From the NCBI GenBank assembly GCA_947085185.1, contig CAMTVK010000019.1, positions 13,892 through 77,891 of the forward strand: a stretch of DNA of 64,000 nt, in the 5' to 3' direction. Shown here one piece after another: positions 30,978 to 52,357 of the stretch. The number at the start of each line of letters is the position of its first letter. Within the stretch, counting starts at the first letter, position 1. The translations under genes were made by a program, and so were the position numbers. Below the pieces are notes generated by a model. The model worked only from the letters and a program-made list of their open reading frames with translations, ran no database searches and was not told the DNA's origin. Source of the DNA: Candidatus Fraserbacteria bacterium (GTDB lineage: Bacteria > Bipolaricaulota > Bipolaricaulia > RBG-16-55-9 > DRXL01).

Positions 30978-31609
30978 ACTGCGGCGATATCTCTCTGTGC
31001 TTTGCTGTTGCGGCTTCTCAGAGCTCGCTGAACTGGCTCACCCCACAAGAGATGCGCGCTCTGGAGCGGATCACATCCGAGCAGCATCGCCGGGACTGGC
31101 TTGCCGGACGGAAAGCCGCCAAAGAGCTTCTTCGACGATACTTTCTCTCAACAGGGCTTGCACTTAATGCAGCTCAGATCGAGATTGCCAATGACGAGCA
31201 CGGGGCCCCCTATCTTGTGAGCCCTTCTCCAGCTCCTCTCATCTCGATCGCGCACAGCGCCGGACATGGCTTCGCCGGCCTGTGCGCGCACCGTTCTATC
31301 GGAGTAGATCTCCAACAAATACGCCCAGTGCGCCCCACACTCCAAGAGCGCGTGCTCGCTGAGCACGAGCACAAGCAGCTCGCGGGCGCTAAGAGCAAAG
31401 AAGCAGAAAGAGAAGGGATACTCGTCTTCTGGGCGCTCAAGGAAGCGACCATCAAAGCTCAAAGAACTCGTCCTGCCCCAGCGTTCCGCGAGATCCTCGT
31501 GACCCTGACAACACCAGGGCACGCAGAGATCTCTTGGCGATCCCAGAGATTCACAGCCCAGTGGGGCCGCTGGAGAGGGTTCATCTGGGCCTGGGTCTCT
31601 AACTGTTGA
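30974..31609 (+). CDS. 4'-phosphopantetheinyl transferase (Sfp/EntD type)
   Basis: 211 aa overlapping the ligase stop. WLAGRKAAKEL...GAPYL motifs. Confidence 0.6.
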   Translation: MNCGDISLCFAVAASQSSLNWLTPQEMRALERITSEQHRRDWLAGRKAAKELLRRYFLSTGLALNAAQIEIANDEHGAPYLVSPSPAPLISIAHSAGHGFAGLCAHRSIGVDLQQIRPVRPTLQERVLAEHEHKQLAGAKSKEAEREGILVFWALKEATIKAQRTRPAPAFREILVTLTTPGHAEISWRSQRFTAQWGRWRGFIWAWVSNC

Positions 31610-33953
31610 GCTCGACGATCGTCACGCCGTCGCCGCCTTGGGTGGGCGGGGCAGACTCAAAGCTCTTCACGATGGGCAGGGTTGCCAAGTGCTTGCGAAT
31701 CTCTTTGCGCAAGATGCCAGCGCCCTTGCCATGCACGATATACCCGCGCGTCAGCCCCGCTAACACTAAGCGATCTAAATAGAGATCGAGCTCCCGGAGG
31801 GCTTCACTGACGGTCATGCCCCGCACGTTCAATTCTAATGCCGGAGCTGAAGCCACATCGAAATGCACCGAGATCGTGCGCCGCTCCGCCTCGCTCATCT
31901 GAGCGCGAGTTGGTTGGACCAAATCCGAGAGCTTGGCCCACAAGCGCAGCCCGCCCACATCCACTTCGATGCGTTCCGCAGCGACGATCTTTCGCACGAC
32001 GCCGATCTTCTTAGACCCACGAAATTGCACAGGCAGCCCCTTCCGAAGCTGCTCCAAAGGGATAGGAACATCAGCGGGCTCTTGGCGGAGCTGCTGCCCT
32101 GCCTCAGCCAGACGACTGCCTAGCTCTTGGACTTCCTTGAGCTTTGCGCGCAGGCGTTCTTCATCGGCGCGCTGCTTGGCAATGTGTAAAGCCTCTTCTA
32201 AAGCCCCCCGCGCTTGTTTCAAGAGGTGCTCCAGACGGCGAAGCTCGTGAGTTAGGGCTTCTTCTTTGCGGCGGCGCAGTTCCTCAAGTTTTTGGGTATA
32301 CTCGGCTTTGAGCTCTTCCAATTCGTGGGCACGCTGGCTTATCGCGAGCCGTTCGTGCGCGAGCTCGCTGCGCTCCTGCTGAAGCTTCTGAAGAACATCC
32401 TCGACCCGCACTTGCCCTTCGGTCAAGTGCGTCTTCGCCAGAGCTACAACGTGCGGCGGCACCCCAAGGCGCTCCGCAATGATGAACGCATTGCTTGCGC
32501 CCACCCCTTCAACGATCTTATACGTGGGCGAAAGCGTCTCAATATCGAATGCGACAGAACAAGTCTTTAGCTTCGGATGCTGATATGCGAAGTGCTTGAT
32601 CGCGCTCAAATGCGTCGTAACGATAAGCTTGGCGTTGGAATCGAGCAATGTCTGTAGGAGCGCGATCCCCAAGGCTGCGCCCTCCGTAGGATCGGTGCCC
32701 GCACCAAGCTCGTCAATGAGCACCAAAGTCTGGGGATCTGCCTCGCGCAAGATCTCAACGAGATTTTTCATATGGGCAGAGAATGTACTGAGATTCTGCT
32801 GGATGGACTGCTCATCGCCGATGTCTGTAAAAATCTTCTGAAAGAGCACGATTGTGCTCTCAGGGGCAGCGGGAATGGGAATCCCCGATTGCGCCATGAG
32901 CGTCAGCAGCCCGACGGTCTTGAGCGAGACGGTCTTGCCGCCGGTGTTGGGCCCGGTGATGACCATCCCCTGGAAGGGTGCTCCCAGACGGATATCAATG
33001 GGCACAACGGCCGTCTGATCGAGCAAGGGATGGCGCGCCTCAATCAAGTGCAGGGGGCCATCTTGGGTGATCGTGGGACGGGAGCACCGCAAGTGCAGAG
33101 CAAACTGTGCTTTCGCGTAGAGCACATCAAAGTACGCTAAGATTTTGAGGGTCTCTTCGATCTTGCGGGTTTCGGCTTGCAGTTTTTTGGTGAGCTCGCG
33201 CATGATGGCAAGCTGTTCGTCGCGGATCTCCCCGTCCAGCTCACGGATCTCATTGTTCTCAGCGACGACAGAAGTCGGCTCGACGTAGAGCGTCTGTCCA
33301 GAGTCCGAGCTGTCATGCACCACTGCATCGAGCTCATAGCGAGCATTGCTCTTGATGGGGATGACGAACCGTCCGGAGCGCCGCGTGACCACGCTATCTT
33401 GTAATACCCCAGACCATTGCCCAGACTGAATGAGAGCTTGCAACCGACGCTGGACTCGCTCTTCTAGGGTGCGCCTTCGGCTGGTCAATTCGCGTAAGCG
33501 TGGTGAAGCGCTGTCGCGGACTTGGCCGTCGTCATCAAAGACTCTTACGATATTCTCTTCCAGCTCGCGGAAGACGTGTATCCGTTCGCCAAGCTCGCGC
33601 ACCTGCGGATAGTCGTCGAGGCGCATCAAGCGCTCGCGGAGGGTGCGTGCCTGACTGATAGCTTGATGGAGAGCGAGAAACTCTTCACCGCTCAGCGCAA
33701 CTGTCTGATGGGCATGGTGTAAGATAGGGCGGATATCCGGCAGTGGGCCAAGTGAGAGATCCGTGGCAAGCAATGCCTCTCGCAGCTCCTCGACGCGGTC
33801 CAGCTCCCGCTGCACCGTGGACAAGTCCGCGGATGGCCGCAAGTTCTCAATGAGCTCGCGCCCCACTTCCGAGCACGCAAAGCTCTTCAGAATCTCCTTG
33901 AGTCTCTCGTACTCCAGATCTTTGAAAGTCTTGGCGCTGGTAACGATGTTCAC
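31599..33953 (-). CDS. mutS2: endonuclease MutS2 (MutS domain + C-terminal Smr)
   Basis: GPNTGGKTVSLKTVGLL, DELGAGTDP, and a C-terminal Smr domain (LDLHGKGAGILRKEIRKHL type). Confidence 0.9.
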   Translation of the reverse strand: MNIVTSAKTFKDLEYERLKEILKSFACSEVGRELIENLRPSADLSTVQRELDRVEELREALLATDLSLGPLPDIRPILHHAHQTVALSGEEFLALHQAISQARTLRERLMRLDDYPQVRELGERIHVFRELEENIVRVFDDDGQVRDSASPRLRELTSRRRTLEERVQRRLQALIQSGQWSGVLQDSVVTRRSGRFVIPIKSNARYELDAVVHDSSDSGQTLYVEPTSVVAENNEIRELDGEIRDEQLAIMRELTKKLQAETRKIEETLKILAYFDVLYAKAQFALHLRCSRPTITQDGPLHLIEARHPLLDQTAVVPIDIRLGAPFQGMVITGPNTGGKTVSLKTVGLLTLMAQSGIPIPAAPESTIVLFQKIFTDIGDEQSIQQNLSTFSAHMKNLVEILREADPQTLVLIDELGAGTDPTEGAALGIALLQTLLDSNAKLIVTTHLSAIKHFAYQHPKLKTCSVAFDIETLSPTYKIVEGVGASNAFIIAERLGVPPHVVALAKTHLTEGQVRVEDVLQKLQQERSELAHERLAISQRAHELEELKAEYTQKLEELRRRKEEALTHELRRLEHLLKQARGALEEALHIAKQRADEERLRAKLKEVQELGSRLAEAGQQLRQEPADVPIPLEQLRKGLPVQFRGSKKIGVVRKIVAAERIEVDVGGLRLWAKLSDLVQPTRAQMSEAERRTISVHFDVASAPALELNVRGMTVSEALRELDLYLDRLVLAGLTRGYIVHGKGAGILRKEIRKHLATLPIVKSFESAPPTQGGDGVTIVELNS

Positions 33954-34723
33954 TTCAGGAGTCCTACGGTCAAGCCACCATCAACGATAATGCTCTGTCC
34001 ACGGATCATTTCGGCGTCGTCGCTGCAGAGAAATGCCACGACTTTGGCGATATCTTCGGGTTTGACCATCCGTCCTGCGGGGGTCAGCCGCGCGATGCGC
34101 TCTTTCTCGTCTTGGGGCATCATGTGGCTGAAGCCCGTCTCGTCCACAAGTCCTCCGCAGACGGCGTTCACCGCAATCTTAGGAGCAAGCTCGACGGCAT
34201 AGCTGCGCGTGAGCGACTCAATCGCGGCTTTGGCCGCACCAAGCGCTCCGTAGTTGGGCAGATATGTGATGCTCCCTAAGCTCGTAATATTGATAATGGC
34301 ACCCTGAGTCATCAGGGGAACCGTGTGCTTGATGCAGAGATTGATCGCTCTGAGATTGACGTCCCAGACGTGCTCCCAGTGCTTCTCTTCTAACTGTAAC
34401 AAGGGGCGAAAGACCGCGGAAGCCGCGTTGTTCACCAAGATATCGAGCTTGCCAAACTCACTCTGAATCGCGGAGAACATCTGGGCGACGTCGTGTGGAT
34501 CGGCGACGTCGGCTTTGATGACCAACGTGCGTCTGCCCAACTGAGTGAGCTCATGGGCGACGGCTTCGGCCTGGGCGCGGGTGCTGTTGCGCCGATGATT
34601 CAAGACAACGTCAGCGCCGCGACGGCCAAGCTCAAGCGCAATAGCTCGACCGATCCCGCGGCTCGACCCTGTGACCAGCGCGACTTTTCCCTGCAAATCC
34701 ATGCCCACGCAAGCATAAAGCAT
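33950..34723 (-). CDS. SDR-family oxidoreductase (FabG-like)
   Basis: GSSRGIGRAIA...NNAA...YGALGAAKAA. Confidence 0.85.
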   Translation of the reverse strand: MLYACVGMDLQGKVALVTGSSRGIGRAIALELGRRGADVVLNHRRNSTRAQAEAVAHELTQLGRRTLVIKADVADPHDVAQMFSAIQSEFGKLDILVNNAASAVFRPLLQLEEKHWEHVWDVNLRAINLCIKHTVPLMTQGAIINITSLGSITYLPNYGALGAAKAAIESLTRSYAVELAPKIAVNAVCGGLVDETGFSHMMPQDEKERIARLTPAGRMVKPEDIAKVVAFLCSDDAEMIRGQSIIVDGGLTVGLLK

Positions 34724-36235: not shown

Positions 36236-37309
36236 ATGAATCAGCTACGACGAAGCGTCGCGTGCGGGGTCTTGGTGCTCTCGTTCAGCATGCTCAGCAT
36301 TGCTTCTTGGGAACAGATCGCACTGGGGCAATCTGTCTTAGGGCGTTTCATGAGCGCGCTGAGTTTTAACAACGTCGCGCCCTACTTTTTGAATGCTGAA
36401 TTTCGCATTCTCTCTCGAATCAGCGTCGCCGAGGCTGCCTTCGCGACCGATACCAAGTTCGACATCACTCTCTTGCGCTGGCAGAAATTCATCGCGTCGG
36501 TGGGCGTCAATCCGCTGTCGGCGCGCAATCGCCTGACGTTCGTCAACGGATTTACGTTTGATAAGAACGAACTGGTCGCAGCGTTGAGCTTTGGCGGGGT
36601 CTCTATTGGCGTTGAGCTCATCCTCAAAAATCAAAGTCCCTCACTCGAAGTTGGGCTGGTCGTCGAAGCCGCAGCGAAGACGGAATGGTTCACGATCGCC
36701 AGTTACACCGGCTTTGGCGTCACCCAAGTCGTCGAAGACTTGGATGTAGATCAGCTGCCTATCGTGAACGAGCCCTTCGGCTTTGAACCGAGAATTGTGA
36801 AGCTGGACACGTTCAGCGAGCGCGAGCCCGACCGCGTCGTCACCGCGCCGTTTCTCTTCACTGAAGAGATCGTGGCTGCGGAATTTTATGCTCTCGATAT
36901 AGCTTCTCTGAGCGTGATGACGCTCTTTACGCCGGGGGGGTTAAGAAAGCTCATCCCTGCGCTCGCGGTGAAAGTGAACGCTCCGGCCGCGGACCTGCGC
37001 TTGCGCATGACGGTCAGCTCGACGTTCGAGTTCGTCCCGCCCGCTGTGTTCTTGACGTTCTTGCCCGTTGAGCTTCACCTGCAGTGGAGCTTCTTCCGGT
37101 GGCGCAGCTTCACGCTCTTGGCTGATCCAGCTCCTCCAGGCCCTCCCAATGGGGTATTCTCCTTCCGACGGCAAGTCTTCCAATCGCTCTTTGAGCTTGC
37201 GTTCTTCCGGGCGTTCACGGAGATCTGCTTTGGGCCGGACTGTCCTGGAGGCTCGGGGCTAGAGTGGCGCTTTGGGGTCGAGCTGCGCTTCCTCTTCGGC
37301 GGCCCATAA
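36236..37309 (+). CDS. secreted hypothetical protein, probable outer-membrane beta-barrel
   Basis: Signal peptide, alternating hydrophobic dyads, and a C-terminal ...GVELRFLFGGP. Confidence 0.45.
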   Translation: MNQLRRSVACGVLVLSFSMLSIASWEQIALGQSVLGRFMSALSFNNVAPYFLNAEFRILSRISVAEAAFATDTKFDITLLRWQKFIASVGVNPLSARNRLTFVNGFTFDKNELVAALSFGGVSIGVELILKNQSPSLEVGLVVEAAAKTEWFTIASYTGFGVTQVVEDLDVDQLPIVNEPFGFEPRIVKLDTFSEREPDRVVTAPFLFTEEIVAAEFYALDIASLSVMTLFTPGGLRKLIPALAVKVNAPAADLRLRMTVSSTFEFVPPAVFLTFLPVELHLQWSFFRWRSFTLLADPAPPGPPNGVFSFRRQVFQSLFELAFFRAFTEICFGPDCPGGSGLEWRFGVELRFLFGGP

Positions 37310-37393: not shown

Positions 37394-37422
37394 TTGACAA
37401 TGTGATTTTATTATGTTATAGT
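37394..37422 (+). promoter_or_regulatory. sigma70-type promoter TTGACA-N17-TATAGT
   Basis: TTGACA at 37394-37399 and TATAGT at 37417-37422. It precedes a 145-nt A-rich leader. Confidence 0.55.
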
Positions 37423-37568
37423 TATTATGTCTCTGAAAGGAGGTGCAGGAGCGCAGCCCAAAGACAAAGACAGTCCTGACAAAGGCAAACCGCGCGAAAG
37501 CGCGGGACGCAAAGCCACAGGCCTACGACAGTGCACACTGTTATCGGCGGCTGGGCTGCCAAAGGACC

Positions 37569-38087
37569 ATGAAGAAGATGCTTGTGCTCGCTGCAGTGGT
37601 AAGCTTAGGTAGTCTGGTTTTCAGCTTGGAAAGCTCCTCGCAGGGCTCAACGAGCGCAGTGGTAACCTTTCGCATTGCGCCCTCGATGAGTCTCTCTATC
37701 TTGGGCGAGAGCACCTCTGGGAACAGCGTGGTCTCGATCTACACGATGCCGCGCCCAACTGCCCAAGAGCGTCAGGCGGGGTTTCTCGAGCGCCTCAACG
37801 CTCTCACGCTGATAGCTCGCAGCAACGTACCGTGGGCCCTGCGCGTCCGCGCTCAAGAGCCCGAGATGGGGATCAGCGATGACGGCACGTATCATAAGCC
37901 CGTCAGCGATTTTGAGGTGCGCGCATCCAGAGGAGCATATCTCCCTGTGGCCCTGTCCGATCAGCTCCTCACCCGCGGCAGCCCCGGGGAACATCCTCTC
38001 AGCATAGACTATAGAATACGCTTAGGGCCGGAACACCGCGATGGCACCTACTCCATTACGCTGATCTATACTCTGGTCTCCCAGTAA
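37569..38087 (+). CDS. small secreted protein, SCPU-like (spore coat U/Csu-pilin-like) candidate
   Basis: AAAGGA ribosome-binding site before ATG 37569. Signal peptide MKKMLVLAAVVSLGSLVFS. The C-terminus GTYSITLIYTLVSQ resembles the GxYTDTVTVTV tail of SCPU subunits. Confidence 0.5.
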   Translation: MKKMLVLAAVVSLGSLVFSLESSSQGSTSAVVTFRIAPSMSLSILGESTSGNSVVSIYTMPRPTAQERQAGFLERLNALTLIARSNVPWALRVRAQEPEMGISDDGTYHKPVSDFEVRASRGAYLPVALSDQLLTRGSPGEHPLSIDYRIRLGPEHRDGTYSITLIYTLVSQ

Positions 38088-38152
38088 CCCCAGCACTTCT
38101 CGAGAGGCTTTCCCCTGCCAGAGGCCATCCCTTGGTATATCGTGTTTTCACC

Positions 38153-38181
38153 TTGACAGAGGTCTCAAGTTCGTGTATAGT
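38153..38181 (+). promoter_or_regulatory. sigma70-type promoter TTGACA-N17-TATAGT for the RHH regulator gene
   Basis: TTGACA at 38153-38158 and TATAGT at 38176-38181, followed by AGGAGG at 38204-38209. Confidence 0.55.
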
Positions 38182-38218
38182 ATATTATAGCACTCAACAG
38201 AGAAGGAGGAAGAAAGCC

Positions 38219-38542
38219 ATGCAATTGACGATCTACTACACCAAGGATGATCTCTATCTTATCAAACAGGTTGAAGCGAAAGCCGAGCGAGAGCGGCGGA
38301 GCAAGAGCTCGGTCATCCTCTCTATCGTCGAAGAGTACTTCGCTCGCAAGAAGAAGCTGGGTGAGATCCTGTGCGATCTAGGAAAGCTCACCCCGGAGAA
38401 GCTCAATCAAGCCATCGAGATCCAGAAGAAAGAAGGGGGCACGCGGACGCTCGGCGAGATCTTGCTCTCCAAGAAGTGGATCACCGAGCACGATCTCATG
38501 CGAGCGCTGATGCTCCAGGGCAAAGCGAAAGATCTCGAATAA
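38219..38542 (+). CDS. ribbon-helix-helix (CopG/Arc) DNA-binding domain fused to a T2SSE_N/MshEN-like domain (putative c-di-GMP receptor)
   Basis: The N-terminus is MQLTIYYTKDDLYLIKQVEAKAE...SVILSIVEEYF (beta-alpha-alpha). It is followed by two tandem 24-residue motifs, KLGEILCDLGKLTPEKLNQAIEIQ and TLGEILLSKKWITEHDLMRALMLQ, separated by 7 aa. Both fit RLGxxLLxxGLLxxxxLxxxLxxQ. Confidence 0.65.
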   Translation: MQLTIYYTKDDLYLIKQVEAKAERERRSKSSVILSIVEEYFARKKKLGEILCDLGKLTPEKLNQAIEIQKKEGGTRTLGEILLSKKWITEHDLMRALMLQGKAKDLE

Positions 38543-38556
38543 TCGAATAACTCTCT

Positions 38557-39588
38557 ATGAAGATCATTCGACCTCTGGGCATAGCCGCCATCGGGATGGG
38601 GCTGGTCTGGCTCTCCGGCCAGGCTTTGCTCATCTCGAACATCGAGTTCGATCTTAGTCTGCCCCGGGGCGCTACGGATATATTGACATTCCAAGTGCTC
38701 AATAACGAAGCCGATCCCCTCGAGATTCAAATCAGCTTGGCTGACTGGGATCGAGACCTCAACGGCGAGAACCGGTTCTATCCGCCAGGGACGCTGCCGC
38801 GCTCGGCAGCAAGCTGGCTCTCTGTCACCCCGTTGCGATTCGATCTTGCGCCAAACGAACAGAAAGAGATTCGCTTCTCCATCAAAGTCCCTTCGGATAT
38901 CGTGGGGACGTACTGGGCGGCGATCATGGTCGAGGCCGCTCCTAAACGGGCTCAGCCCCAACCCCCAGGCACGACTGTGATCGTGCGGCGGCGCTTCGCT
39001 GTCAAAGTCTTAGAGACCCCACCGGGCACAGGCACCAAGGACGGGCGCATCACCTTGATAGACGTGCGCGGGCTCAATCCCCCAAATTACTTTCTAGAGT
39101 TTGAGAACCGGGGGACGATCCATACCCCGCAAGTCAAAGGGCGCATCGAGCTGCGCGACGAGAAGGGAGCACTTATAGAAAAGCTCGAGATCGAGAGCTT
39201 TCCCACCCTGCCCTTCTCCAAACGCTTGCTCAAAGTCACCAGCGCTCGCAAGAGAGGGGATCTCTTGCCCCCGGGGAAGTATCTTGTCTTAGCTATTCTC
39301 GATTATGGGGGAGAGACCCTCGCAGGCGGGCAATTTATTCTCCGGATCAAGCCCTTACAGCTCGTCCCCATCGGCGACGCCAAGGCCCCTCCCAAAGACT
39401 TAGACAAAGACGGCCTCTACGAAGATGTCAACGGGGACGGCACGCTCTCCCTCGAAGACGCTGCGCTCTTGGGGTTGAATATTGATAAACCCGCGGTGCA
39501 AGAGAACGCCAGAGCGTTCGACTTCGATAACGACGGCGACGCCGACTTCGACGATGTCGTCACCCTCAAAAAGATAGCTGGGGGATAA
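38557..39588 (+). CDS. secreted two-domain beta-sandwich protein (PapD-like N-terminal fold) with C-terminal type I dockerin
   Basis: Signal peptide. The N-terminal ILTFQVLNNEADPLEIQISLADW resembles the chaperone L.V.NN...P.L.Q.W strand. The C-terminal DVNGDGTLSLEDAALL and DFDNDGDADFDDVVTLKK form a duplicated Ca-binding dockerin. Confidence 0.6.
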   Translation: MKIIRPLGIAAIGMGLVWLSGQALLISNIEFDLSLPRGATDILTFQVLNNEADPLEIQISLADWDRDLNGENRFYPPGTLPRSAASWLSVTPLRFDLAPNEQKEIRFSIKVPSDIVGTYWAAIMVEAAPKRAQPQPPGTTVIVRRRFAVKVLETPPGTGTKDGRITLIDVRGLNPPNYFLEFENRGTIHTPQVKGRIELRDEKGALIEKLEIESFPTLPFSKRLLKVTSARKRGDLLPPGKYLVLAILDYGGETLAGGQFILRIKPLQLVPIGDAKAPPKDLDKDGLYEDVNGDGTLSLEDAALLGLNIDKPAVQENARAFDFDNDGDADFDDVVTLKKIAGG

Positions 39589-39693
39589 AGACAGTTCAGA
39601 GTTCCCAGTCTGACAGTTCTAAGTTCAGCGGCTCGGCGAACTCAGACCTATGAAACCCTGAACTGTCCCGCGCCCCCGCGATCCTTCGTCAAT

Positions 39694-40017
39694 TTAGCCG
39701 CGCTTGACGGAGAGTTTTCCGCCAGCTTCCACGACTTTGAGCCTCTTGCGGACCATCTCTTTGAGCTCGCGACCAGCCCGGAACCCCGGCACGGCCTTGC
39801 TCGCGACCATGATGCGCTGGCCCGTCTGCGGGTTGACACGCATAGAACTCTTGCGCGGGCGCGCCTCAAATGTGCCAAACCCCGTGATCCGCACCGGCTC
39901 GCCATCGCACATCGTCTTGCTAATCGTTTCAAACATCGCGTCCACGGCCTCTTTGGCCGCCTTCTTGCTCAGACCCGTCTGCTTGGCTACCATCTCTGCC
40001 AACTCGGCCTTGTTCAT
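39694..40017 (-). CDS. HU-family nucleoid protein with Lys-rich C-terminal extension
   Basis: MNKAELAEMVAKQTGLSKKAAKEAVDAMFETI...GFGTFEARPRKSSMRVNPQTGQ. Confidence 0.85.
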   Translation of the reverse strand: MNKAELAEMVAKQTGLSKKAAKEAVDAMFETISKTMCDGEPVRITGFGTFEARPRKSSMRVNPQTGQRIMVASKAVPGFRAGRELKEMVRKRLKVVEAGGKLSVKRG

Positions 40018-40226
40018 TGGCACAAACCCCCCTTGTGGTCTATGATGAACCCAACGGACAGCCCTCGTGCCGGCGGAGGAGAGCTGCCCATCCGGTTCTC
40101 AAGTGCCCATATTCTAGAGACTCACCCCCCTAGAAGGCAAATTTTCACCTCCAGGGACAGAGATACCCTGGGAGAGAGCTTGCCGTCCTTGGTCCCCCAT
40201 CGCCAAAGATCTTAAAATTTCCTACA

Positions 40227-43200
40227 ATGCACAAGAGGGCCATAAATATTATCGGGCTGATCACGGTGGGATGGAGCTGGCTGGGCACCGGCCAGGTGAT
40301 GATCACCCCTCCTGCGGCTCCGCCGATCGCCGGCCCCGGCGATGCCCTCACCCTGCCGTTTCACGTGAAAAATACCGGCCCAGAAAGAGATATGTTCGAG
40401 TTCTCTCTCGAAATGTCTGCGGGGCTTGAGCCGCTGGGGACGCCCGAGCCAGTTGAGCTTGACCCCAATGCCGCAGAGACTGTTTTCGTCAGCGTCTTCG
40501 TCAGCACGAAAGCCCGCGCGGGAGAGGGAAGCGTCACCCTGAAAGCCCGGTCACGAAAGAACCCATCCCTGACAGGTCAAGCTACGGTGATAGTGACCGT
40601 CAGAGCATCTCCTGGGCTGGCCCTGAGCGCTCCCCCGGCCAAGACGGTCGAGCCAGGCCGCGCTGACTCCCTCGTCTTCATCGTGCGCAACACGGGCAAT
40701 GTGCCGGATCGTGTGGCGTTCTCCACACAAACTACGGGTGCTCTGAAAGCGCAAGCACCCACGGACGAGATCCCGCTTGACGTCGGCGAGCGCCGTGAGG
40801 TACGAGTCGAAATCTCCGTGCCTAAGGGCGCTCCGCCGGTGCGCCAGCGCGTCACGCTCACAGCCCTCTCCAAAAAATTTCCAAACGTCTCCGCTGAAGC
40901 TACGGCGGTGCTGGAGATCTTGCCGCCCTTGCCCCAAGAGGTGGGCGGCTCGCTCTTTTTGACGATCCCCTCCGAAGTACAGTTTCAATTCGACGGCCAG
41001 ACAGGAGCGACGTTAGGAGCTTTTATCACGATTACTGAGCGAGGCGGCGTGCTGGTCCCTGAGCCGCCGGCAGTGCGCCTCGACGTCGGAGGAACCTTGA
41101 CTGTGAATAATACGAGCCCCGTGGCGATCACGGTGACCGTGTCCGATGGGCGACCCCCCGTGAGCATCCCGTCGGGGGGAAGCAGCTCTTTCGCTTTCCC
41201 AGTCTCCGGAATCTTTACTGTGACTTTCAGCAACGGGGCTCTCATCTCTTCTGTGGGCTTCGTGACCGTGCACGATATAATCTTCCGACAGAGGCTCAGG
41301 GGGGGCGGTGGCACGAGCCCTCTCAGCACCCAGCAGAACGTCCTCACGCGCGACGCTCGCTATGCTTGGCCAAGGCGCGAGCCCTCTGAACGTTTTCAAG
41401 AGATCTCTTATCTGCTCGATATTCAGAATCTCTTCGAGCTCAATGCGCTCTTCTTTGCCCTCGATGGGAGCCCCCTAGGAGTGACCTTGGGCGATCTCTA
41501 TCTCCCGGTGGGTGTGCTGGCGACCCTGGCCGGGCGCGGCGGCCAGCTCATTGTGCACCCAGGGATTTTCAGCACAAGACTCTCGCTCTCGGCTACGGCC
41601 GGCCGACGTGCCCTCCCCGAACTCGCATTTTTGATCACCGATGACCCAGCCGAGCTGCCCTCTGCAGGAGTCGTCAGCCTGAATCAGCCCGTTCGGTTTC
41701 GCAACGTCGGGCTTCTCCCCCATACAGTCACGATTGCCGGCTCCGGGACGATAACGCTTGCGCCAGGGCAGTCGTTCGTCTATCTCTTCAGCACCATCGG
41801 ACAGATCACTGTTACGATAGATACAACGCCTGTGGTCTTTCTCGTGATTGCCGAAGCGTTCTGCAGTGCATCGTTTCTCTTCTGTCTTGGCGCTGAAGGG
41901 CAAGGCTCGCCCATCCCCGGCGTGACGGTAGGCCAGACCGCGCTCTTTGGGTATACTCCCAGTCCGAGCCTGACGACGACGCTCATCAACCGGGTGCGCT
42001 GGCAGATCCCCGGCGGCAGCGCCACGACCGTCGAGGGTGGGCTCACTTGGCAAAACGGGACTCTCTTAGATTCTGCCCTGCGCGCCAGCTCGGAGCTGCG
42101 CTTTGGCGACTTTTTCGTGGTCGCAGAATTTCTCCGGGCCGGCCGGGATTTCGTGGGTGACCGCCGCGATGAACAGAGTATTCAGATCTTTCAAGCGTTC
42201 TCGAGCACAAACTTTTCCGTGGGTCTCAGCTTTGGGCGCTCGCACAACAACGTCAATGCCGATCCCCTGCAGCAGACGCTGACCCGCCAGGATGCCCGCG
42301 CCGCGCTTCGTCTCAAGATCTCCGAAGTGCTGCCTACGATCAAGCTCGCCACAGCCTATAGCACGTTGGTGGGAACAGGCCCCTTGCCCCCTACAGATAT
42401 CGCACGGTTCTCCATCACGGCACAAGCGACCCAGCCCATTGGCCAGCTTGGGGATATCTCCGTCTTTACCGAGCAAGCCCGAATCATCAACGCTGTCGCA
42501 GGCACCGATATCGGCTTTGGCACGGTGGGCAGCGATTTCTCTCTCAGACTGACGGAGCTGCGCGCCTCGCTGCGCTTCGAGCACCGCTCCGAGGTCGATC
42601 TCCTCTCGAGCGCTCTGCTGAGCCGGACGCTTATAGCTTCAGCGGGGATGGAGCTGGTGCGCCGCCCGTTCGGCGTGCGCCTAGGGATCACGCGGTTTGC
42701 TCAACGCACGGATCTGAGCGTGGGCCTCCAAGCCCAGCTGGGGATCGCTGAGCTCTTCTTCTCTAGCTTGATAGGGCTGCTCGATCTGGGCGGGGCAGAC
42801 TTCAGCTTTGCGCTCGCCTTCTTGGTGCGCTTTGATGCCCCGATCCCGTTCCTCGTCGTCAAGGGGCAAGTTGAGGGCTTCGTCTTCATAGATACAAATA
42901 AGAACACTCAGCGCGACCCCAACGAGACTGGGCCAAAAGATCTCATCCTCACGTTGGGCAATGAAAAAGCTCGCACCGACGCGCGCGGGTTCTTCAGATT
43001 CCCCCCGATGCCCACAGGAACATACGAGCTCAAGATCGAAAAGCTTCCCCTAGGGATCATCGTCAAGACAGAACTCCCTAAGAAAATCCAGATTGTCGCG
43101 GGGCAGACTCTGAAGATCGAGGTCCCCCTGGCCCAAGTCGCAGTGATCGAAGGGCTGGTCTTCCACGACGAGAACCGCAACGGTCAAGTAGATTCTTCAG

Positions 43201-43718
43201 AGCAAGGGCTCAGCTCTGTACGGATCTTCTTGACGGATGCGACGGGCAAGACTCGCGAGCAACGTACGGATCTTGATGGGCGCTTCGCGTTCAGCGAGCT
43301 GCTTTCGGGAAGGTACACGGTCGCTCTCGACGTGCGCAGTCTTCCGGAGAATTTTGTGCCGACGACCCCGGCAGAAGTCGTGGTGGAGCTGCGCCCCCAG
43401 GAGCAGATCACTGTGAACTTTGGGGCAGCTGAGCGCGAGAAGATCGTGAAATTCCCGCCGGTGGCAGAGTTCACGTTCTCCCCGCCACGCCCCACTGTGG
43501 GCCAGACCGTGACTTTTGACGCTTCAGAATCGTTCGATCCTGATGGACAGATCGTCAAGTATGAATGGGACTTTGAGAGCGACGGGACGATAGACGCTCA
43601 AGGGGTTGTAGTCGAGCACGTCTTCACCCAAGCGGGGACATTCACGGTGACGCTGAGTGTGACAGATAACGATGGCCAGACAAGCACGGCACGAAAGACC
43701 ATCACGGTGAGGCCGTGA
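40227..43718 (+). CDS. giant surface adhesin-like protein (CARDB-like repeats, central beta-rich region, SdrD-B/CnaB-like repeats, C-terminal PKD)
   Basis: Signal peptide. N-terminal HVKNTGPERD and IVRNTGNVPD are CARDB-like. GLVFHDENRNGQVDSSEQGLSSVRIFLTDATGKTREQRTDLDGRFAFSEL is CnaB/SdrD-B. The C-terminal VTFDASESFDPDGQIVKYEWDF...TFTVTLSVTDNDGQTS is PKD. Confidence 0.7.
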   Translation: MHKRAINIIGLITVGWSWLGTGQVMITPPAAPPIAGPGDALTLPFHVKNTGPERDMFEFSLEMSAGLEPLGTPEPVELDPNAAETVFVSVFVSTKARAGEGSVTLKARSRKNPSLTGQATVIVTVRASPGLALSAPPAKTVEPGRADSLVFIVRNTGNVPDRVAFSTQTTGALKAQAPTDEIPLDVGERREVRVEISVPKGAPPVRQRVTLTALSKKFPNVSAEATAVLEILPPLPQEVGGSLFLTIPSEVQFQFDGQTGATLGAFITITERGGVLVPEPPAVRLDVGGTLTVNNTSPVAITVTVSDGRPPVSIPSGGSSSFAFPVSGIFTVTFSNGALISSVGFVTVHDIIFRQRLRGGGGTSPLSTQQNVLTRDARYAWPRREPSERFQEISYLLDIQNLFELNALFFALDGSPLGVTLGDLYLPVGVLATLAGRGGQLIVHPGIFSTRLSLSATAGRRALPELAFLITDDPAELPSAGVVSLNQPVRFRNVGLLPHTVTIAGSGTITLAPGQSFVYLFSTIGQITVTIDTTPVVFLVIAEAFCSASFLFCLGAEGQGSPIPGVTVGQTALFGYTPSPSLTTTLINRVRWQIPGGSATTVEGGLTWQNGTLLDSALRASSELRFGDFFVVAEFLRAGRDFVGDRRDEQSIQIFQAFSSTNFSVGLSFGRSHNNVNADPLQQTLTRQDARAALRLKISEVLPTIKLATAYSTLVGTGPLPPTDIARFSITAQATQPIGQLGDISVFTEQARIINAVAGTDIGFGTVGSDFSLRLTELRASLRFEHRSEVDLLSSALLSRTLIASAGMELVRRPFGVRLGITRFAQRTDLSVGLQAQLGIAELFFSSLIGLLDLGGADFSFALAFLVRFDAPIPFLVVKGQVEGFVFIDTNKNTQRDPNETGPKDLILTLGNEKARTDARGFFRFPPMPTGTYELKIEKLPLGIIVKTELPKKIQIVAGQTLKIEVPLAQVAVIEGLVFHDENRNGQVDSSEQGLSSVRIFLTDATGKTREQRTDLDGRFAFSELLSGRYTVALDVRSLPENFVPTTPAEVVVELRPQEQITVNFGAAEREKIVKFPPVAEFTFSPPRPTVGQTVTFDASESFDPDGQIVKYEWDFESDGTIDAQGVVVEHVFTQAGTFTVTLSVTDNDGQTSTARKTITVRP

Positions 43719-44258
43719 TCACGAGATCTGCCGCAACAGCTTCCGTACCCGATAGAAATACTCAGCCCCGGAGATCACCGTCACGGCCACGACGATAGGA
43801 ACGAGAATATCTTTTATGCCCGCGACGTCCCAACGGAACGCCCCTTGGCCAAGTAACACCAAGACCAGCCCAATCTGCGAGATCGTCTTGAGCTTGCCCC
43901 AGATACTTGCCCCAAGCACCATCCCTTGAGTGCTGATCACCGTGCGCAACCCCGTCACTAAAAACTCTCGCGCAATAATAATAATCACGGGAATCGCGGA
44001 GATCTGCTGCAACTGCACATACGCTAAAAGCACCGAGATAATCAAGAGCTTATCCGCGATAGGATCGGCAAATTTCCCCAAGTTTGTCTCGTCAGAGCGG
44101 CGACGCGCCAGATAGCCGTCGAGCGCATCGGTCATCGCAGCAAAACCAAAGAGCGCCAGCGCGATCAGCGCGTTCTGCGCCCCGGGAACGAGCACAAAAT
44201 AGAGAATCGCCGGAATCAGCGCGATGCGCAGCAGCGTGATCCCATTGGGCCAGTTCAT
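43719..44258 (-). CDS. pgsA: CDP-diacylglycerol--glycerol-3-phosphate 3-phosphatidyltransferase
   Basis: MNWPNGITLLRIALIP...DALDGYLARR...GKFADPIADK. Confidence 0.8.
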   Translation of the reverse strand: MNWPNGITLLRIALIPAILYFVLVPGAQNALIALALFGFAAMTDALDGYLARRRSDETNLGKFADPIADKLLIISVLLAYVQLQQISAIPVIIIIAREFLVTGLRTVISTQGMVLGASIWGKLKTISQIGLVLVLLGQGAFRWDVAGIKDILVPIVVAVTVISGAEYFYRVRKLLRQIS

Positions 44259-44284
44259 AGGGCTATTGTAAAGTGACGGCGCAG

Positions 44285-45043
44285 CTAGAGCAACCGCCCA
44301 CAAAACTCTCTCAGAGCTTCTGTGACCGCCTGGGGCTGCTCCACCATCACCATGTGTCCGGCACGTTCTATGATTTCTAAGTGGGCATTGGGGATATGAT
44401 GCTGAAGATACTCAGAATACTTGACTGGGGTGAGCTTGTCCTCCCGCCCGCAGAGTATGAGTGTGGGCACGGCGATCTCCGAGAGTCGCGCCATGACGTC
44501 GAATGCGTTACAGCTTGAGAAATCACGAAAGAGCGTGGCCGCCCCGTTGCGATGCATCTGGTGGCGGGCTCGCTCGTGAAGCTCTGTGGGGCTCTGCTCC
44601 GCGAAGGCCCATCGAATGACGAGCTCGATCGCGTGCTCAAAGTCCGTCTGGCAGAGCTCGAGAATCTGTGGGTGGACTGTAAGCTTCGCTCCAGTGCCGA
44701 CAAGCCCTAAGCCCGCAAGATTCTGAGGGCGCTCGAGCCCAACTGTAAGGGCGATCGCCCCGCCCATTGAGTGTCCGACGACGACCGTGGGCAGAGCCAG
44801 AGCTTTGAGCACCGCGAGCACATCTTCGACATAAGTATGCAGCCCGTCACCCTGGCGGGCAGGGCTGCGCCCGTGGCCGTTGAGATCCACAGCTGCGACC
44901 GAAAAATCTTGGGCAAGCTCGCGCAACTGCTCCCCCCAGATGGTGTGATCCCCACCGGCACCATGCACAAAGAGCAGCGCGGGCTGGCCCTGCCCCGCCT
45001 GTGCATAATAGAGCTCTTGGTGAAAGACTGTGATCGTGGGCAC
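44285..45043 (-). CDS. alpha/beta-fold hydrolase
   Basis: HGAGG, GHSMGG nucleophile elbow, C-terminal His. Confidence 0.7.
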   Translation of the reverse strand: MPTITVFHQELYYAQAGQGQPALLFVHGAGGDHTIWGEQLRELAQDFSVAAVDLNGHGRSPARQGDGLHTYVEDVLAVLKALALPTVVVGHSMGGAIALTVGLERPQNLAGLGLVGTGAKLTVHPQILELCQTDFEHAIELVIRWAFAEQSPTELHERARHQMHRNGAATLFRDFSSCNAFDVMARLSEIAVPTLILCGREDKLTPVKYSEYLQHHIPNAHLEIIERAGHMVMVEQPQAVTEALREFCGRLL

Positions 45044-46241: not shown

Positions 46242-46314
46242 CGCTCCCAAGGGGATTCGAACCCCTGTTTCCGGCTTGAGAGACCAGCGTCCTGGGCCGC
46301 TAGACGATGGGAGC
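46242..46314 (-). tRNA. tRNA-Glu (anticodon CUC)
   Basis: Manual cloverleaf: acceptor GCTCCCA/TGGGAGC, D-arm GTCT..GGAC, anticodon arm CTGGT-CTCTCAA-GCCGG, T-arm AGGGG-TTCGAAT-CCCCT, discriminator G. CCA is not encoded. Confidence 0.7.
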
Positions 46315-52115: not shown

Positions 52116-52189
52116 TGGCGGGGGAGGGACTCGAACCCTCTACCTGCCGCTTATGAGACGGCCGCTCTAGCCAGATGAGCTACCCCGCC
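52116..52189 (-). tRNA. tRNA-Met (CAU), elongator type (or Ile2-lysidine)
   Basis: Acceptor GGCGGGG/CCCCGCC, D-stem GCTC/GAGC with a pyrimidine at position 11, anticodon loop CTCATAA, T-arm GAGGG-TTCGAGT-CCCTC. It ends 4 nt from the smpB start. Confidence 0.7.
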
Positions 52190-52281: not shown

Positions 52282-52357
52282 TGGTTGCGGGGGCTGGATT
52301 CGAACCAGCAACCTCCGGGTTATGAGCCCGACGAGCTTCCTGTTGCTCCACCCCGCA
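52282..52357 (-). tRNA. tRNA-fMet-like (CAU) initiator type, CCA encoded
   Basis: Anticodon stem carries three G:C pairs (TCGGG/CCCGG), position 11 is A pairing with U24, anticodon CAT. Position 1:72 is an unusual U:A. TATAAT on the minus strand (plus 52361-52366) lies just upstream. Confidence 0.65.

What the first reader, a model, noticed from the sequence alone, without database searches (positions are those of the whole stretch)
38219..38542. Small RHH transcription-factor domain fused to a T2SSE_N/MshEN-like tandem motif: candidate c-di-GMP-sensing regulator in a surface-protein locus
The N-terminal 45 aa form a CopG/Arc-type ribbon-helix-helix. The C-terminal half carries two consecutive 24-residue motifs, KLGEILCDLGKLTPEKLNQAIEIQ and TLGEILLSKKWITEHDLMRALMLQ. 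Both match the RLGxx(LVI)(LVI)xxG(LVI)(LVI)xxxxLxxxLxxQ signature of the high-affinity c-di-GMP-binding MshEN domain. That domain is otherwise found at the N-terminus of T2SS/T4P ATPases. The gene has its own consensus promoter and ribosome-binding site, and it sits between secreted fimbrial/adhesin-like genes. This fits a second-messenger switch for adhesion. An RHH-MshEN architecture as a stand-alone regulator is not something I recognise as described. Motif 2 has K in place of the conserved Gly, and the inter-motif spacer is 7 aa rather than 5, so binding is not assured.
Basis: partly seen in the sequence, partly recalled or inferred. Interest (0 to 1): 0.7.

Follow-up and report, generated by a model that had tools for sequence, protein, structure and literature searches.

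The report
Small c-di-GMP-sensing DNA-binding regulator
A 107-residue protein joins a ribbon-helix-helix DNA-binding domain to the compact c-di-GMP-binding module known from pilus ATPases, and it belongs to an apparently undescribed family, common in uncultured Bipolaricaulota, whose genes usually sit behind c-di-GMP riboswitches beside surface-protein genes.

Summary
ORF 38219-38542 (+) encodes 107 aa, preceded by a TTGACA-17-TATAGT promoter and an AAGGAGG ribosome-binding site. Residues 46-98 match NCBIfam NF053729, the MshE-related c-di-GMP motif (52.5 bits, cutoff 38). In the AlphaFold model they superpose on c-di-GMP-bound PilF-GSPIIB and MshE at 0.8-1.1 Å. Residues 1-45 fold like CopG, Arc and CdbA.

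The protein belongs to a family of about 100-120 aa. At least 272 species-level genomes carry it, mostly Bipolaricaulota MAGs annotated "hypothetical". The putative DNA-contact residues Q2, T4 and Y6 and the ligand-contact Leu, Gly and Gln positions of both motifs are nearly invariant.

In 80 related loci I found 107 such riboswitches, 106 on the gene's strand. In 45 loci one ends a median 58 nt before the gene's start codon. In 35 of 46 leaders the aptamer's 3' end forms the 5' arm of a terminator, which implies a c-di-GMP ON switch.

Most likely this is a c-di-GMP-responsive RHH transcription factor of a surface-protein regulon. Binding of c-di-GMP and DNA, the operator and the sign of regulation remain untested. 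No description of this architecture was found. I rate it a new variant of a known kind.

The parts
38153..38181 (+). Promoter-like site of the RHH-MshEN gene (TTGACA, 17 nt, TATAGT)
   Evidence: 11 of 12 matches. Both hexamers are kept in 14 relatives whatever lies upstream.
38203..38209 (+). Ribosome-binding site AAGGAGG, 9 nt before the ATG
   Evidence: Read directly from the sequence.
38219..38542 (+). RHH-MshEN gene, 107 aa plus stop codon
   Evidence: An identical protein (P0001) and 37 close homologues of 61-159 aa (most 104-120) were found.
38219..38353 (+). Ribbon-helix-helix domain (aa 1-45): strand MQLTIYY, helix 9-24, helix 29-44
38354..38425 (+). MshEN motif 1 (aa 46-69)
   Evidence: K46=R9, L47=L10, G48=G11, L62=L25, I66=L29 and Q69=Q32 of V. 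cholerae MshE. G48, E49 and L51 are invariant and Q69 is kept in 80 of 81.
38426..38446 (+). Seven-residue spacer KKEGGTR (aa 70-76)
   Evidence: Solved PilB chains 5zfr and 5tsg have the same spacer length and align without a gap.
38447..38518 (+). MshEN motif 2 (aa 77-100)
   Evidence: L78=L39, G79=G40, L93=L54, L97=L58 and Q100=Q61. The deviating residues are T77 (R38) and K86 (G47). G79 and Q100 are kept in 80 of 81.
37394..37422 (+). Promoter-like site (TTGACA, 17 nt, TATAGT) of the riboswitch transcript
   Evidence: It is conserved in L008-L016.
37475..37564 (+). c-di-GMP-I class riboswitch aptamer
   Evidence: Rfam RF03167, 75.2 bits (gathering score 59), E 5e-16. A second family of the same clan also passed its threshold. 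The sequence reads CGC-A-AAG, the canonical A.
37569..38087 (+). 172-aa secreted beta-sandwich protein, the direct target of the riboswitch
   Evidence: The same family lies behind an aptamer in 9 other loci at full length, plus a truncated 62-aa ORF in L008.
38557..39588 (+). 343-aa secreted protein with a dockerin-like C-terminus, 14 nt downstream and probably co-transcribed
   Evidence: Dockerin_1, 23.2 bits against a cutoff of 22.9. The same neighbour is found in L001-L003 and L088.
40227..43718 (+). 1163-aa surface protein (PKD, SdrD_B, Ig-like domains), a conserved neighbour and candidate target
   Evidence: The orthologous neighbour is present in L001-L003, and a similar protein lies next to the gene in L006.

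Best explanation
The gene encodes a small cytoplasmic transcription factor that senses c-di-GMP directly. Two chains should pair through the N-terminal ribbon-helix-helix domain, as in CopG and Arc. That pairing would place a two-stranded sheet, with Q2, T4 and Y6 facing out, in the DNA major groove. The second RHH helix runs almost without a linker into a four-helix MshEN_N module. That module should bind one extended c-di-GMP per chain, as in MshE and PilF. Ligand binding at this junction would then change DNA affinity or the cooperation between dimers. The result would be a switch in transcription of the adjacent secreted and surface-protein genes, and probably of the gene itself. In most relatives the gene lies behind a c-di-GMP-I riboswitch whose aptamer competes with a terminator. 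In those genomes the protein is made only when c-di-GMP is high, so it most likely acts in its ligand-bound form: RNA and protein sensors of one signal in series. In the window's clade the gene has its own promoter, and the riboswitch controls the upstream 172-aa gene instead. Shown here: the two folds, the motif, the family, its conservation, the riboswitch linkage and the terminator geometry. Inferred: c-di-GMP binding, DNA binding, the targets and the sign of regulation.

For: Ligand-contact positions: L47, G48, L62, I66, Q69, L78, G79, L93, L97 and Q100 correspond to L10, G11, L25, L29, Q32, L39, G40, L54, L58 and Q61 of MshE. They are kept in 78-81 of 81 sequences, counting Leu, Ile and Val as equivalent at the hydrophobic positions.

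RHH domain. Residues alternate between invariant polar ones (Q2, T4, Y6) and hydrophobic ones (positions 3, 5, 7).

Riboswitch linkage: an aptamer lies at 37475-37564 in the window. In 80 species-level loci there are 107 aptamers, 106 on the gene's strand. In 45 loci an aptamer ends within 300 nt upstream of the start codon (median 58 nt). Aptamer density is 0.82 per kb within 500 nt of the gene against 0.048 per kb elsewhere. In 35 of 46 leaders the last 9-16 nt of the aptamer form the 5' arm of a hairpin of at least 11 bp followed by a T-run.

Neighbours behind further aptamers are large Ig-like, PKD, cadherin-like or LTD surface proteins, S8 peptidases and the 172-aa family.
Against: Nothing has been measured, and every genome that carries the family is a MAG. 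The window's copy departs from the V. cholerae motif at K46 (R9), K56 (I19), T77 (R38) and K86 (G47). XpsE, which does not bind c-di-GMP, also differs at the I19 and R38 positions among others. Against that, PilF-GSPIIB binds c-di-GMP with Lys at position 1 of motif 1 and Leu at position 1 of motif 2. Pfam T2SSE_N and RHH_1 do not hit the window protein itself. No operator was found: k-mer enrichment in 81 promoter regions returned only -35 and -10 elements. In the window's clade no riboswitch lies directly before this gene, and six close relatives have none within 5 kb. The model is a monomer with pTM 0.55, so the arrangement of the two domains and the dimer are not modelled.
Confidence: 0.6

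Rival explanations
1. The MshEN-like half is degenerate in this clade, as in XpsE. It would serve only as a helical oligomerisation or stability module on an ordinary RHH repressor that does not respond to c-di-GMP.
For: Four motif positions deviate (K46, K56, T77, K86). Non-binding XpsE also differs at the I19 and R38 positions. This clade's gene has its own promoter and no riboswitch directly upstream.
Against: The ten Leu, Gly and Gln contact positions are intact and under strong conservation. The score is well above the curated cutoff. The fit to ligand-bound structures is sub-ångström to about 1 Å. c-di-GMP-binding PilF-GSPIIB tolerates Lys and Leu at the two first positions. The clade still sits beside a c-di-GMP riboswitch in the window and seven relatives (L008-L011, L013, L016, L019).
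Confidence: 0.15
2. It binds c-di-GMP but is not a sequence-specific transcription factor. It would be either a nucleoid-associated protein modulated by c-di-GMP, like CdbA, or a sink induced by c-di-GMP that buffers the free nucleotide as negative feedback.
For: Induction by a c-di-GMP ON riboswitch fits a feedback buffer. No conserved operator was found. CdbA sets a precedent for an RHH protein that is a c-di-GMP-regulated nucleoid protein (PMC7156744).
Against: The near-invariance of the three outward-facing ribbon residues Q2, T4 and Y6 across sequences only about 45% identical overall points to a specific, conserved DNA target. A pure sink would not need an RHH domain. The fixed position beside surface-protein genes suggests local targets.
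Confidence: 0.15
3. The RHH domain serves only for dimerisation. The protein would be a c-di-GMP-dependent adaptor that acts on another protein, such as a secretion or surface-assembly component, rather than on DNA.
For: In known proteins MshEN modules regulate attached enzymes such as ATPases and glycosyltransferases. The neighbours are secreted proteins.
Against: No conserved cytoplasmic partner gene is present in the loci. The ribbon residues and the RSKS helix cap closely resemble CopG (CopG sequence recalled from my own knowledge).
Confidence: 0.07
4. It is the RHH antitoxin of a toxin-antitoxin pair.
For: Many RHH structural neighbours are antitoxins, including TacA, VapB, ParD, MazE6 and Rv0298.
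Against: No toxin-like gene is adjacent in the window or in any inspected locus. The neighbours are riboswitches and secreted proteins. In L005 the gene stands alone in a conserved chromosomal slot.
Confidence: 0.03

Closest known systems
MshEN_N c-di-GMP-binding module of MshE (V. cholerae, 5HTL), PilF-GSPIIB (T. thermophilus, 8PDK) and PilB
   Same: It has two tandem 24-residue motifs forming four helices. The Leu, Gly and Gln contact positions are the same. It matches the curated HMM and superposes on the ligand-bound structures at 0.8-1.1 Å.
   Different: There is no MshEN_C subdomain and no ATPase. The module is C-terminal rather than N-terminal and is fused to a DNA-binding domain. The spacer is 7 aa rather than 5. 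Positions 1 and 11 of motif 1 and positions 1 and 10 of motif 2 deviate in the window copy.
NfrB, a c-di-GMP-activated glycosyltransferase with a C-terminal MshEN domain
   Same: It carries a C-terminal MshEN-type module that controls an N-terminal output domain. NCBIfam NF008411 aligns its residues 639-711 to aa 29-103 of this protein, and 31 of 38 family members hit that model.
   Different: The output is a membrane glycosyltransferase rather than a DNA-binding domain.
CdbA of Myxococcus xanthus, an RHH protein and c-di-GMP receptor
   Same: It is a small RHH DNA-binding protein that binds c-di-GMP. It is among the RHH-domain Foldseek hits for residues 1-45 (6sbw, rmsd 1.8 Å).
   Different: CdbA binds c-di-GMP through the RHH DNA-binding surface itself, so that DNA and ligand are mutually exclusive. 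[quoted passage not shown]
CopG and Arc plasmid/phage RHH repressors
   Same: They share the beta-alpha-alpha fold and an N-terminal ribbon with alternating polar and hydrophobic residues. CopG is the best RHH hit by sequence (E 0.14, positions 12-45 against 11-44) and matches by structure (TM 0.80 normalised to CopG).
   Different: CopG and Arc have no ligand-binding domain and are not known to be controlled by a second messenger.
NikR and MetJ, ligand-responsive RHH regulators (comparison from my own knowledge, not tested here)
   Same: In both, an RHH DNA-binding unit has its operator affinity set by a small ligand. In NikR the ligand binds a separate C-terminal domain.
   Different: The ligands (Ni2+, SAM) and sensor folds differ (ACT-like domain in NikR). 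There is no sequence relationship to the MshEN half.

Membership tests
MshEN (MshEN_N) c-di-GMP-binding domain | Significant match to a curated profile of the domain | tested here: met
   NF053729 gives 52.5 bits against a cutoff of 38, E 3.1e-14, over aa 46-98. 36 of 38 family members match. Pfam T2SSE_N (PF05157) gives no hit; Pfam's T2SSE_N is the full N-terminal domain, whereas this protein has only the 53-residue MshEN_N core, which probably explains the miss.
MshEN (MshEN_N) c-di-GMP-binding domain | Two tandem 24-residue motifs RLGxx(L)(V/I)xxG(I/F)(L/V)xxxxLxxxLxxQ joined by a short spacer | tested here: met
   The motifs are at aa 46-69 and 77-100 with a 7-aa spacer. Solved PilB homologues have the same spacer length.
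MshEN (MshEN_N) c-di-GMP-binding domain | Key contact residues conserved (R9, L10, G11, G18, L25, L29, Q32, and R38, L39, G40, G47, L54, L58, Q61 of V. cholerae MshE) | tested here: inconclusive
   Ten of fourteen positions are identical or conservatively kept, including all Leu, Gly(3) and Gln positions. R9 is K46, R38 is T77 and G47 is K86. In addition I19 is K56. Against the relaxed published motif, motif 2 fails at positions 1 and 10, and motif 1 at positions 7 (C) and 11 (K). The family consensus is closer to canonical.
MshEN (MshEN_N) c-di-GMP-binding domain | Four-helix fold superposable on the ligand-bound domain | tested here: met
MshEN (MshEN_N) c-di-GMP-binding domain | Specific c-di-GMP binding in vitro | not testable with these tools
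   This needs ITC, DRaCALA or MST. Indirect support comes from the genomic linkage to c-di-GMP riboswitches.
Ribbon-helix-helix (CopG/Arc/MetJ) superfamily | Beta-alpha-alpha topology of about 45 residues | tested here: met
Ribbon-helix-helix (CopG/Arc/MetJ) superfamily | Significant sequence match to an RHH profile | tested here: inconclusive
   The window protein has no Pfam RHH hit at E <= 1. Its family profile matches CopG at E 0.14. Eight of 38 family members hit PF01402 RHH_1, the best at 1.3e-4.
Ribbon-helix-helix (CopG/Arc/MetJ) superfamily | N-terminal strand with alternating solvent-facing polar and core-facing hydrophobic residues, and a Ser/Thr-capped second helix | tested here: met
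   Q2, T4 and Y6 are kept in 79-81 of 81 sequences. Positions 3, 5 and 7 are hydrophobic or beta-branched. S28 and S30 are invariant.
Ribbon-helix-helix (CopG/Arc/MetJ) superfamily | Homodimer that binds DNA through the paired strands | not testable with these tools
   Only monomer prediction was available. This needs SEC-MALS, EMSA or a multimer model.
CdbA family | c-di-GMP bound by the RHH surface itself; Myxococcales-specific paralogues CdbA and CdbB | tested here: not met
   The similarity is at fold level only (22% identity over 36 residues). This protein has a separate MshEN module and a different taxonomic range.
c-di-GMP-I riboswitch (neighbouring element at 37475-37564) | Score above the Rfam gathering threshold over the full-length model | tested here: met
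   RF03167 scores 75.2 bits against 59, over model positions 1-80 of 80. A second family of the clan also passed.
c-di-GMP-I-GGC variant riboswitch (RF03167) | G in place of the canonical A within CGC-A-AAG, as the RF03167 consensus CGCGAAG shows | tested here: not met
   The window and all 95 relatives' aptamers that could be scored have A at this position. They are best treated as canonical c-di-GMP-I despite the label.

The most novel reading that the evidence does not exclude
RHH-MshEN proteins are a previously unrecognised, widespread class of c-di-GMP-dependent transcription factors in Bipolaricaulota and neighbouring candidate phyla. Together with a c-di-GMP ON riboswitch in their own leader, they would form a two-tier circuit in which RNA and then protein sense the same messenger. 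That circuit would act as a coincidence filter or delay element gating expression of adhesins, proteases and other surface proteins. In the window's clade the protein sensor has been uncoupled from the riboswitch and works as a stand-alone switch.
Probability: 0.45. Interest if true: 0.75.

Novelty: new variant of a known kind. Interest (0 to 1): 0.65.

Why it matters
Only PilZ and MshEN, and recently ComFB, are regarded as broadly distributed c-di-GMP receptor modules. The known c-di-GMP-responsive transcription factors, such as FleQ, BldD and CdbA, each use their own lineage-specific binding mode. A minimal 53-residue MshEN core fused directly to an RHH domain would be the simplest known design of this kind: a portable ligand module bolted onto a portable DNA-binding module.

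It would also give the first handle on c-di-GMP signalling in Bipolaricaulota, a phylum known in this dataset only from metagenome-assembled genomes (MAGs). There the messenger appears to govern surface proteins through dense arrays of riboswitches.

A riboswitch and a protein receptor for the same messenger, wired in series, is an unusual and testable regulatory design. The parts are small enough for direct biochemistry and for use as a synthetic c-di-GMP-responsive switch.

Tried and rejected
- Pfam on the single protein gave only sub-threshold FumaraseC_C and DUF4388 hits and no T2SSE_N or RHH hit. These are artefacts of the helical motif. NCBIfam, PDB profile searches and structure comparison settled the domain assignments.
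- The search for related loci with the 38-sequence alignment failed because the alignment was too diverse. A 12-sequence alignment worked.
- The listing of cluster members returned no organism names. Taxonomy came from the record titles.
- The AFDB50 fold library was unavailable.
- Operator search: k-mers of 6-8 nt enriched in 81 promoter regions against 4446 control windows were only -35 and -10 elements. GGAC-N4-GTCC abuts the -35 in about 9 loci of one clade. It is not enriched overall (16 observed against 17.5 in shuffles) and is absent from the window's promoters. A GTG-N4-CAC element before the window's -35 is not conserved in the clade.
- The idea that the window's 1163-aa adhesin is the orthologue of the riboswitch-controlled downstream genes is rejected. 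The single-linkage cluster rests on the PKD domain alone.
- The idea that other DNA-binding-MshEN fusions exist, prompted by the 'ArsR' label on P0222, is rejected. Those proteins are membrane-anchored tandem-MshEN proteins.
- A regex scan of the window for GGDEF, EAL, HD-GYP or PilZ signatures found nothing credible.
- A sensitive Rfam scan of 38000-40400 found no hidden aptamer.
- The 172-aa protein has no convincing structural relative.

Full report
**1. The observation**

The + strand ORF runs from ATG 38219 to TAA 38540-38542 and encodes 107 residues: MQLTIYYTKDDLYLIKQVEAKAERERRSKSSVILSIVEEYFARKKKLGEILCDLGKLTPEKLNQAIEIQKKEGGTRTLGEILLSKKWITEHDLMRALMLQGKAKDLE. A sigma-70-like site, TTGACA-17-TATAGT, lies at 38153-38181 (11 of 12 matches). 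AAGGAGG lies 9 nt before the ATG. In 14 close relatives both promoter hexamers are kept even where the upstream gene differs, so this clade's gene has its own promoter.

**2. The C-terminal half**

- Pfam finds nothing significant.
- NCBIfam NF053729, 'cyclic di-GMP-binding domain-containing protein, MshE-related', matches aa 46-98 over the whole profile at 52.5 bits (cutoff 38, E 3.1e-14). Weaker matches hit the MshEN regions of NfrB and related glycosyltransferases.
- Against PDB sequences the single protein finds T. thermophilus PilF (1.6e-11), PilB and MshE. A family profile finds PilF at 1.3e-21, PilB at 1.3e-9 and V. cholerae MshE 5htl at 4.5e-8.
- The profile alignment to MshE maps the residues. 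L47, G48, L62, I66 and Q69 correspond to L10, G11, L25, L29 and Q32. L78, G79, L93, L97 and Q100 correspond to L39, G40, L54, L58 and Q61.
- Wang et al. describe these Leu residues as stacking on the two guanines. The Gly backbone amides read O6/N7, and the Gln residues bind ribose and phosphate. The isolated MshEN_N fragment 1-62 binds with Kd 0.35 µM (PMC5013675).
- The deviations are K46 (R9), K56 (I19), T77 (R38) and K86 (G47). PilF-GSPIIB binds c-di-GMP with Lys at the first position of motif 1 and Leu at the first position of motif 2. Solved PilB chains have the same 7-residue spacer. The I19 and G47 substitutions are the ones that leave binding by this particular copy uncertain.

**3. 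The N-terminal half**

**4. The family**

A word-indexed search found 38 close homologues of 61-159 aa (most 104-120). All were unnamed or labelled hypothetical, and all named ones came from Candidatus Bipolaricaulota or Acetothermia. A full HMMER scan of 1.84 billion cluster representatives with the family profile returned about 45 proteins of 72-151 aa with a single match starting at profile position 1 (some partial) among the top 150. The remainder were multi-MshEN proteins. The best 80 come mostly from Bipolaricaulota MAGs. A few carry Fraserbacteria, Aerophobetes, Caldisericota, Atribacteria or other labels. All 80 encode intact proteins of 99-117 aa.

Across these 81 sequences, which are often only 45-55% identical to the window protein, conservation is as follows:
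- RHH half: Q2 79, T4 79, Y6 81, D11 81, R26 81, S28 81, S30 81, E38 81, F41 81.
- Motif 1: R/K46 81, G48 81, E49 81, L51 81, Q69 80.
- Motif 2: G79 80, L82 79, L97 78, Q100 80.
- Variable positions: motif 2 position 1, and the turn glycine of motif 2 (G 27, E 20, K 13).

In the ribbon, invariant polar residues (2, 4, 6) alternate with hydrophobic ones (3, 5, 7). That is the pattern expected if Q2, T4 and Y6 face DNA, as R4, T6 and T8 do in CopG (my own knowledge) and K8, S10 and Y12 do in CdbA. 36 of 38 diverse members match NF053729.

**5.

Rfam finds a c-di-GMP-I class aptamer at 37475-37564 (+), 75.2 bits, behind a second consensus promoter at 37394. It ends 4 nt before the ATG of the 172-aa signal-peptide protein at 37569.

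I scanned all 80 related loci (605 kb) at Rfam gathering thresholds and tabulated the hits:
- There are 107 aptamers, 106 of them on the strand of the RHH-MshEN gene.
- 58 of 80 loci have at least one.
- In 45 of 80 an aptamer ends within 300 nt upstream of the gene's start codon (median gap 58 nt).
- In 33 of 80 another begins within 300 nt downstream (median 54 nt).
- Ten more have the window's layout, with an aptamer 300-1000 nt upstream.
- Density is 0.82 per kb within 500 nt of the gene and 0.048 per kb elsewhere.

A separately fetched homologue, L004, shows the same arrangement. Most hits are labelled RF03167 ('GGC' variant). However, the window and all 95 aptamers I could score read CGC-A-AAG where the RF03167 consensus has G. 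They are therefore best read as ordinary c-di-GMP-I aptamers.

**6. Riboswitch logic**

For the 46 leaders directly before an RHH-MshEN gene, I folded the last 16 nt of the aptamer plus the downstream leader. In 35 of them, 9-16 of those aptamer nucleotides form the 5' arm of a hairpin of at least 11 bp followed by a T-run. Two further leaders, L072 and L083, look the same by eye. Aptamer and terminator are thus mutually exclusive. I infer that c-di-GMP binding prevents termination, making this an ON switch.

The window's aptamer is different. It has no terminator. The minimum-free-energy fold pairs GUCCU (37472-37476) with AGGAC (37563-37567), which is the ribosome-binding site. This suggests translational control of the 172-aa gene, probably repression by the ligand. 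That step is inference only.

**7. Neighbours**

In the window the gene lies between MutS2 plus a short-chain dehydrogenase (31599-34723, minus strand) and a CDP-alcohol phosphatidyltransferase (43719-44303, minus strand). In L005 the homologue sits alone in that same slot. In L001-L003 the sequence RHH-MshEN, 345-aa protein, HU (minus strand) and 1141-aa PKD protein is conserved, as in the window.

Genes behind the additional aptamers are:
- the 172-aa family, full length in 9 other loci plus a truncated 62-aa ORF in L008, at 34-73% identity;
- S8 peptidases of about 350 aa in 5 loci;
- large secreted proteins of 450 to more than 1600 aa with DUF7507, LTD, Big_9, PKD, DUF11 or cadherin-like domains.

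The window's 1163-aa protein shares only its PKD domain with these large proteins. The AF2 model of the 172-aa protein (pLDDT 71.5) is a beta-sandwich without a convincing solved relative. RHH-MshEN is the only conserved protein in these loci without a signal peptide and with a regulator-like fold.

**8. Mechanism**

The best-supported reading is a c-di-GMP-responsive RHH transcription factor, set out under the best explanation above. RHH helix 2 ends at about residue 44, and the ligand-contacting K46-L47-G48 begins the next helix. The ligand site therefore abuts the part of an RHH dimer that usually mediates contacts between dimers. That last point is inference from general knowledge of RHH proteins.

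Where the gene is behind an ON riboswitch, the protein exists mainly when c-di-GMP is high. The holo form is therefore the likelier active species, at roughly 55:45. Apo-form activity after c-di-GMP falls, acting as a shut-off timer, cannot be excluded. The targets are unknown. K-mer enrichment in promoter regions recovered only -35 and -10 elements.

**9. Comparison with known systems and novelty**

The sensor is a member of the MshEN_N class. Curated profile, motif and fold criteria are met, the residue test is mixed, and binding is untested. The DNA-binding half is an RHH, with fold and ribbon pattern met and sequence support at family level only.

The protein is not a CdbA-type receptor, because CdbA binds c-di-GMP on its DNA-binding surface and lacks MshEN. 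Published MshEN architectures list ATPase, glycosyltransferase, REC, HD-GYP, CheA/CheX, cyclase and kinase partners. The supplement of that paper does not mention ribbon, CopG, HTH or DNA-binding. Full-text searches combining MshEN with ribbon-helix-helix, CopG, DNA-binding or transcriptional regulator, and c-di-GMP riboswitch with Bipolaricaulota, found no description. That library is incomplete, so priority cannot be guaranteed.

I rate the finding a new variant of a known kind. The modules are known, but their combination is new, as is the pairing of a riboswitch with a protein receptor for the same ligand.

**10. Verdict**

- Confidence in the full mechanistic statement is about 0.6. By my estimate the window copy binds c-di-GMP with probability about 0.75 and binds DNA through the RHH domain with probability about 0.8.
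- Interest is 0.65.

Noticed in passing
window 37475-37564 (+), with promoter at 37394-37422: A c-di-GMP-I class riboswitch, not in the finding, ends 4 nt before the ATG of a 172-aa secreted protein. The ribosome-binding site AGGAC can pair with GUCCU at the aptamer's 5' end, which suggests translational control. Rfam labels it the 'GGC' variant, but it carries the canonical A.
   Followed up: yes
window 37569-38087 (+); also L009, L010, L011, L013, L016, L019, L041, L056, L085: A family of 171-178-aa signal-peptide beta-sandwich proteins with no Pfam or NCBIfam match always has a c-di-GMP aptamer abutting its start codon. No convincing structural relative was found (TM <= 0.4 to CUB, the enterotoxin C-domain and the BPSL1626 fimbrial protein).
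   Followed up: partly
L004 6348-6695 (+) and the contig end at about 6745-6775: A second small protein (115 aa) has an MshEN tandem motif but no RHH domain. It lies directly after the RHH-MshEN gene. The contig then ends in what looks like the start of another c-di-GMP aptamer.
   Followed up: partly
L032 4750-4827 and 4871-4948; L045 4667-4775 and 4817-4946; L078 788-869 and 888-961; L041 4271-4319 and 4331-4427: Tandem c-di-GMP aptamers occur in a single leader, before the RHH-MshEN gene or before the next gene.
   Followed up: no
L038 4812, L049 4794, L072 2324, L074 4821, L075 4798, L083 4798; also L040 3864, L065 3858, L073 544: A palindrome GGAC-N4-GTCC abuts the -35 hexamer (GTCC(C/T)CTTGA). 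The arms are conserved and the spacer varies, all within one sub-clade. It may be an operator for some dimeric regulator. It is not enriched overall and is absent from the window.
   Followed up: partly
L039, L071, L072, L075, L083 (for example L075 3149-9305): A conserved array reads: tRNA, aptamer, S8 peptidase (about 350 aa), aptamer, RHH-MshEN, aptamer, then a surface protein (>1200 aa where the ORF is complete). That is three riboswitches within about 1.8 kb.
   Followed up: partly
window 39694-40023 (-): An HU-type DNA-binding protein gene sits on the opposite strand between the 343-aa gene and the 1163-aa surface-protein gene. The same placement occurs in L001-L003.
   Followed up: no
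window 36236-37309 (+): A 357-aa ORF with a signal-peptide-like start has no match in Pfam or NCBIfam. It lies just upstream of the riboswitch promoter.
   Followed up: no
proteins P0222, P0223, P0224, P0232: These membrane-anchored proteins of about 186-213 aa carry three or four MshEN-like motifs. One has a JGI label 'ArsR family regulator' that the sequence and the Pfam scan do not support.
   Followed up: yes
window 46242-46314, 52116-52189, 52285-52357 (-): Three tRNA genes.
   Followed up: no
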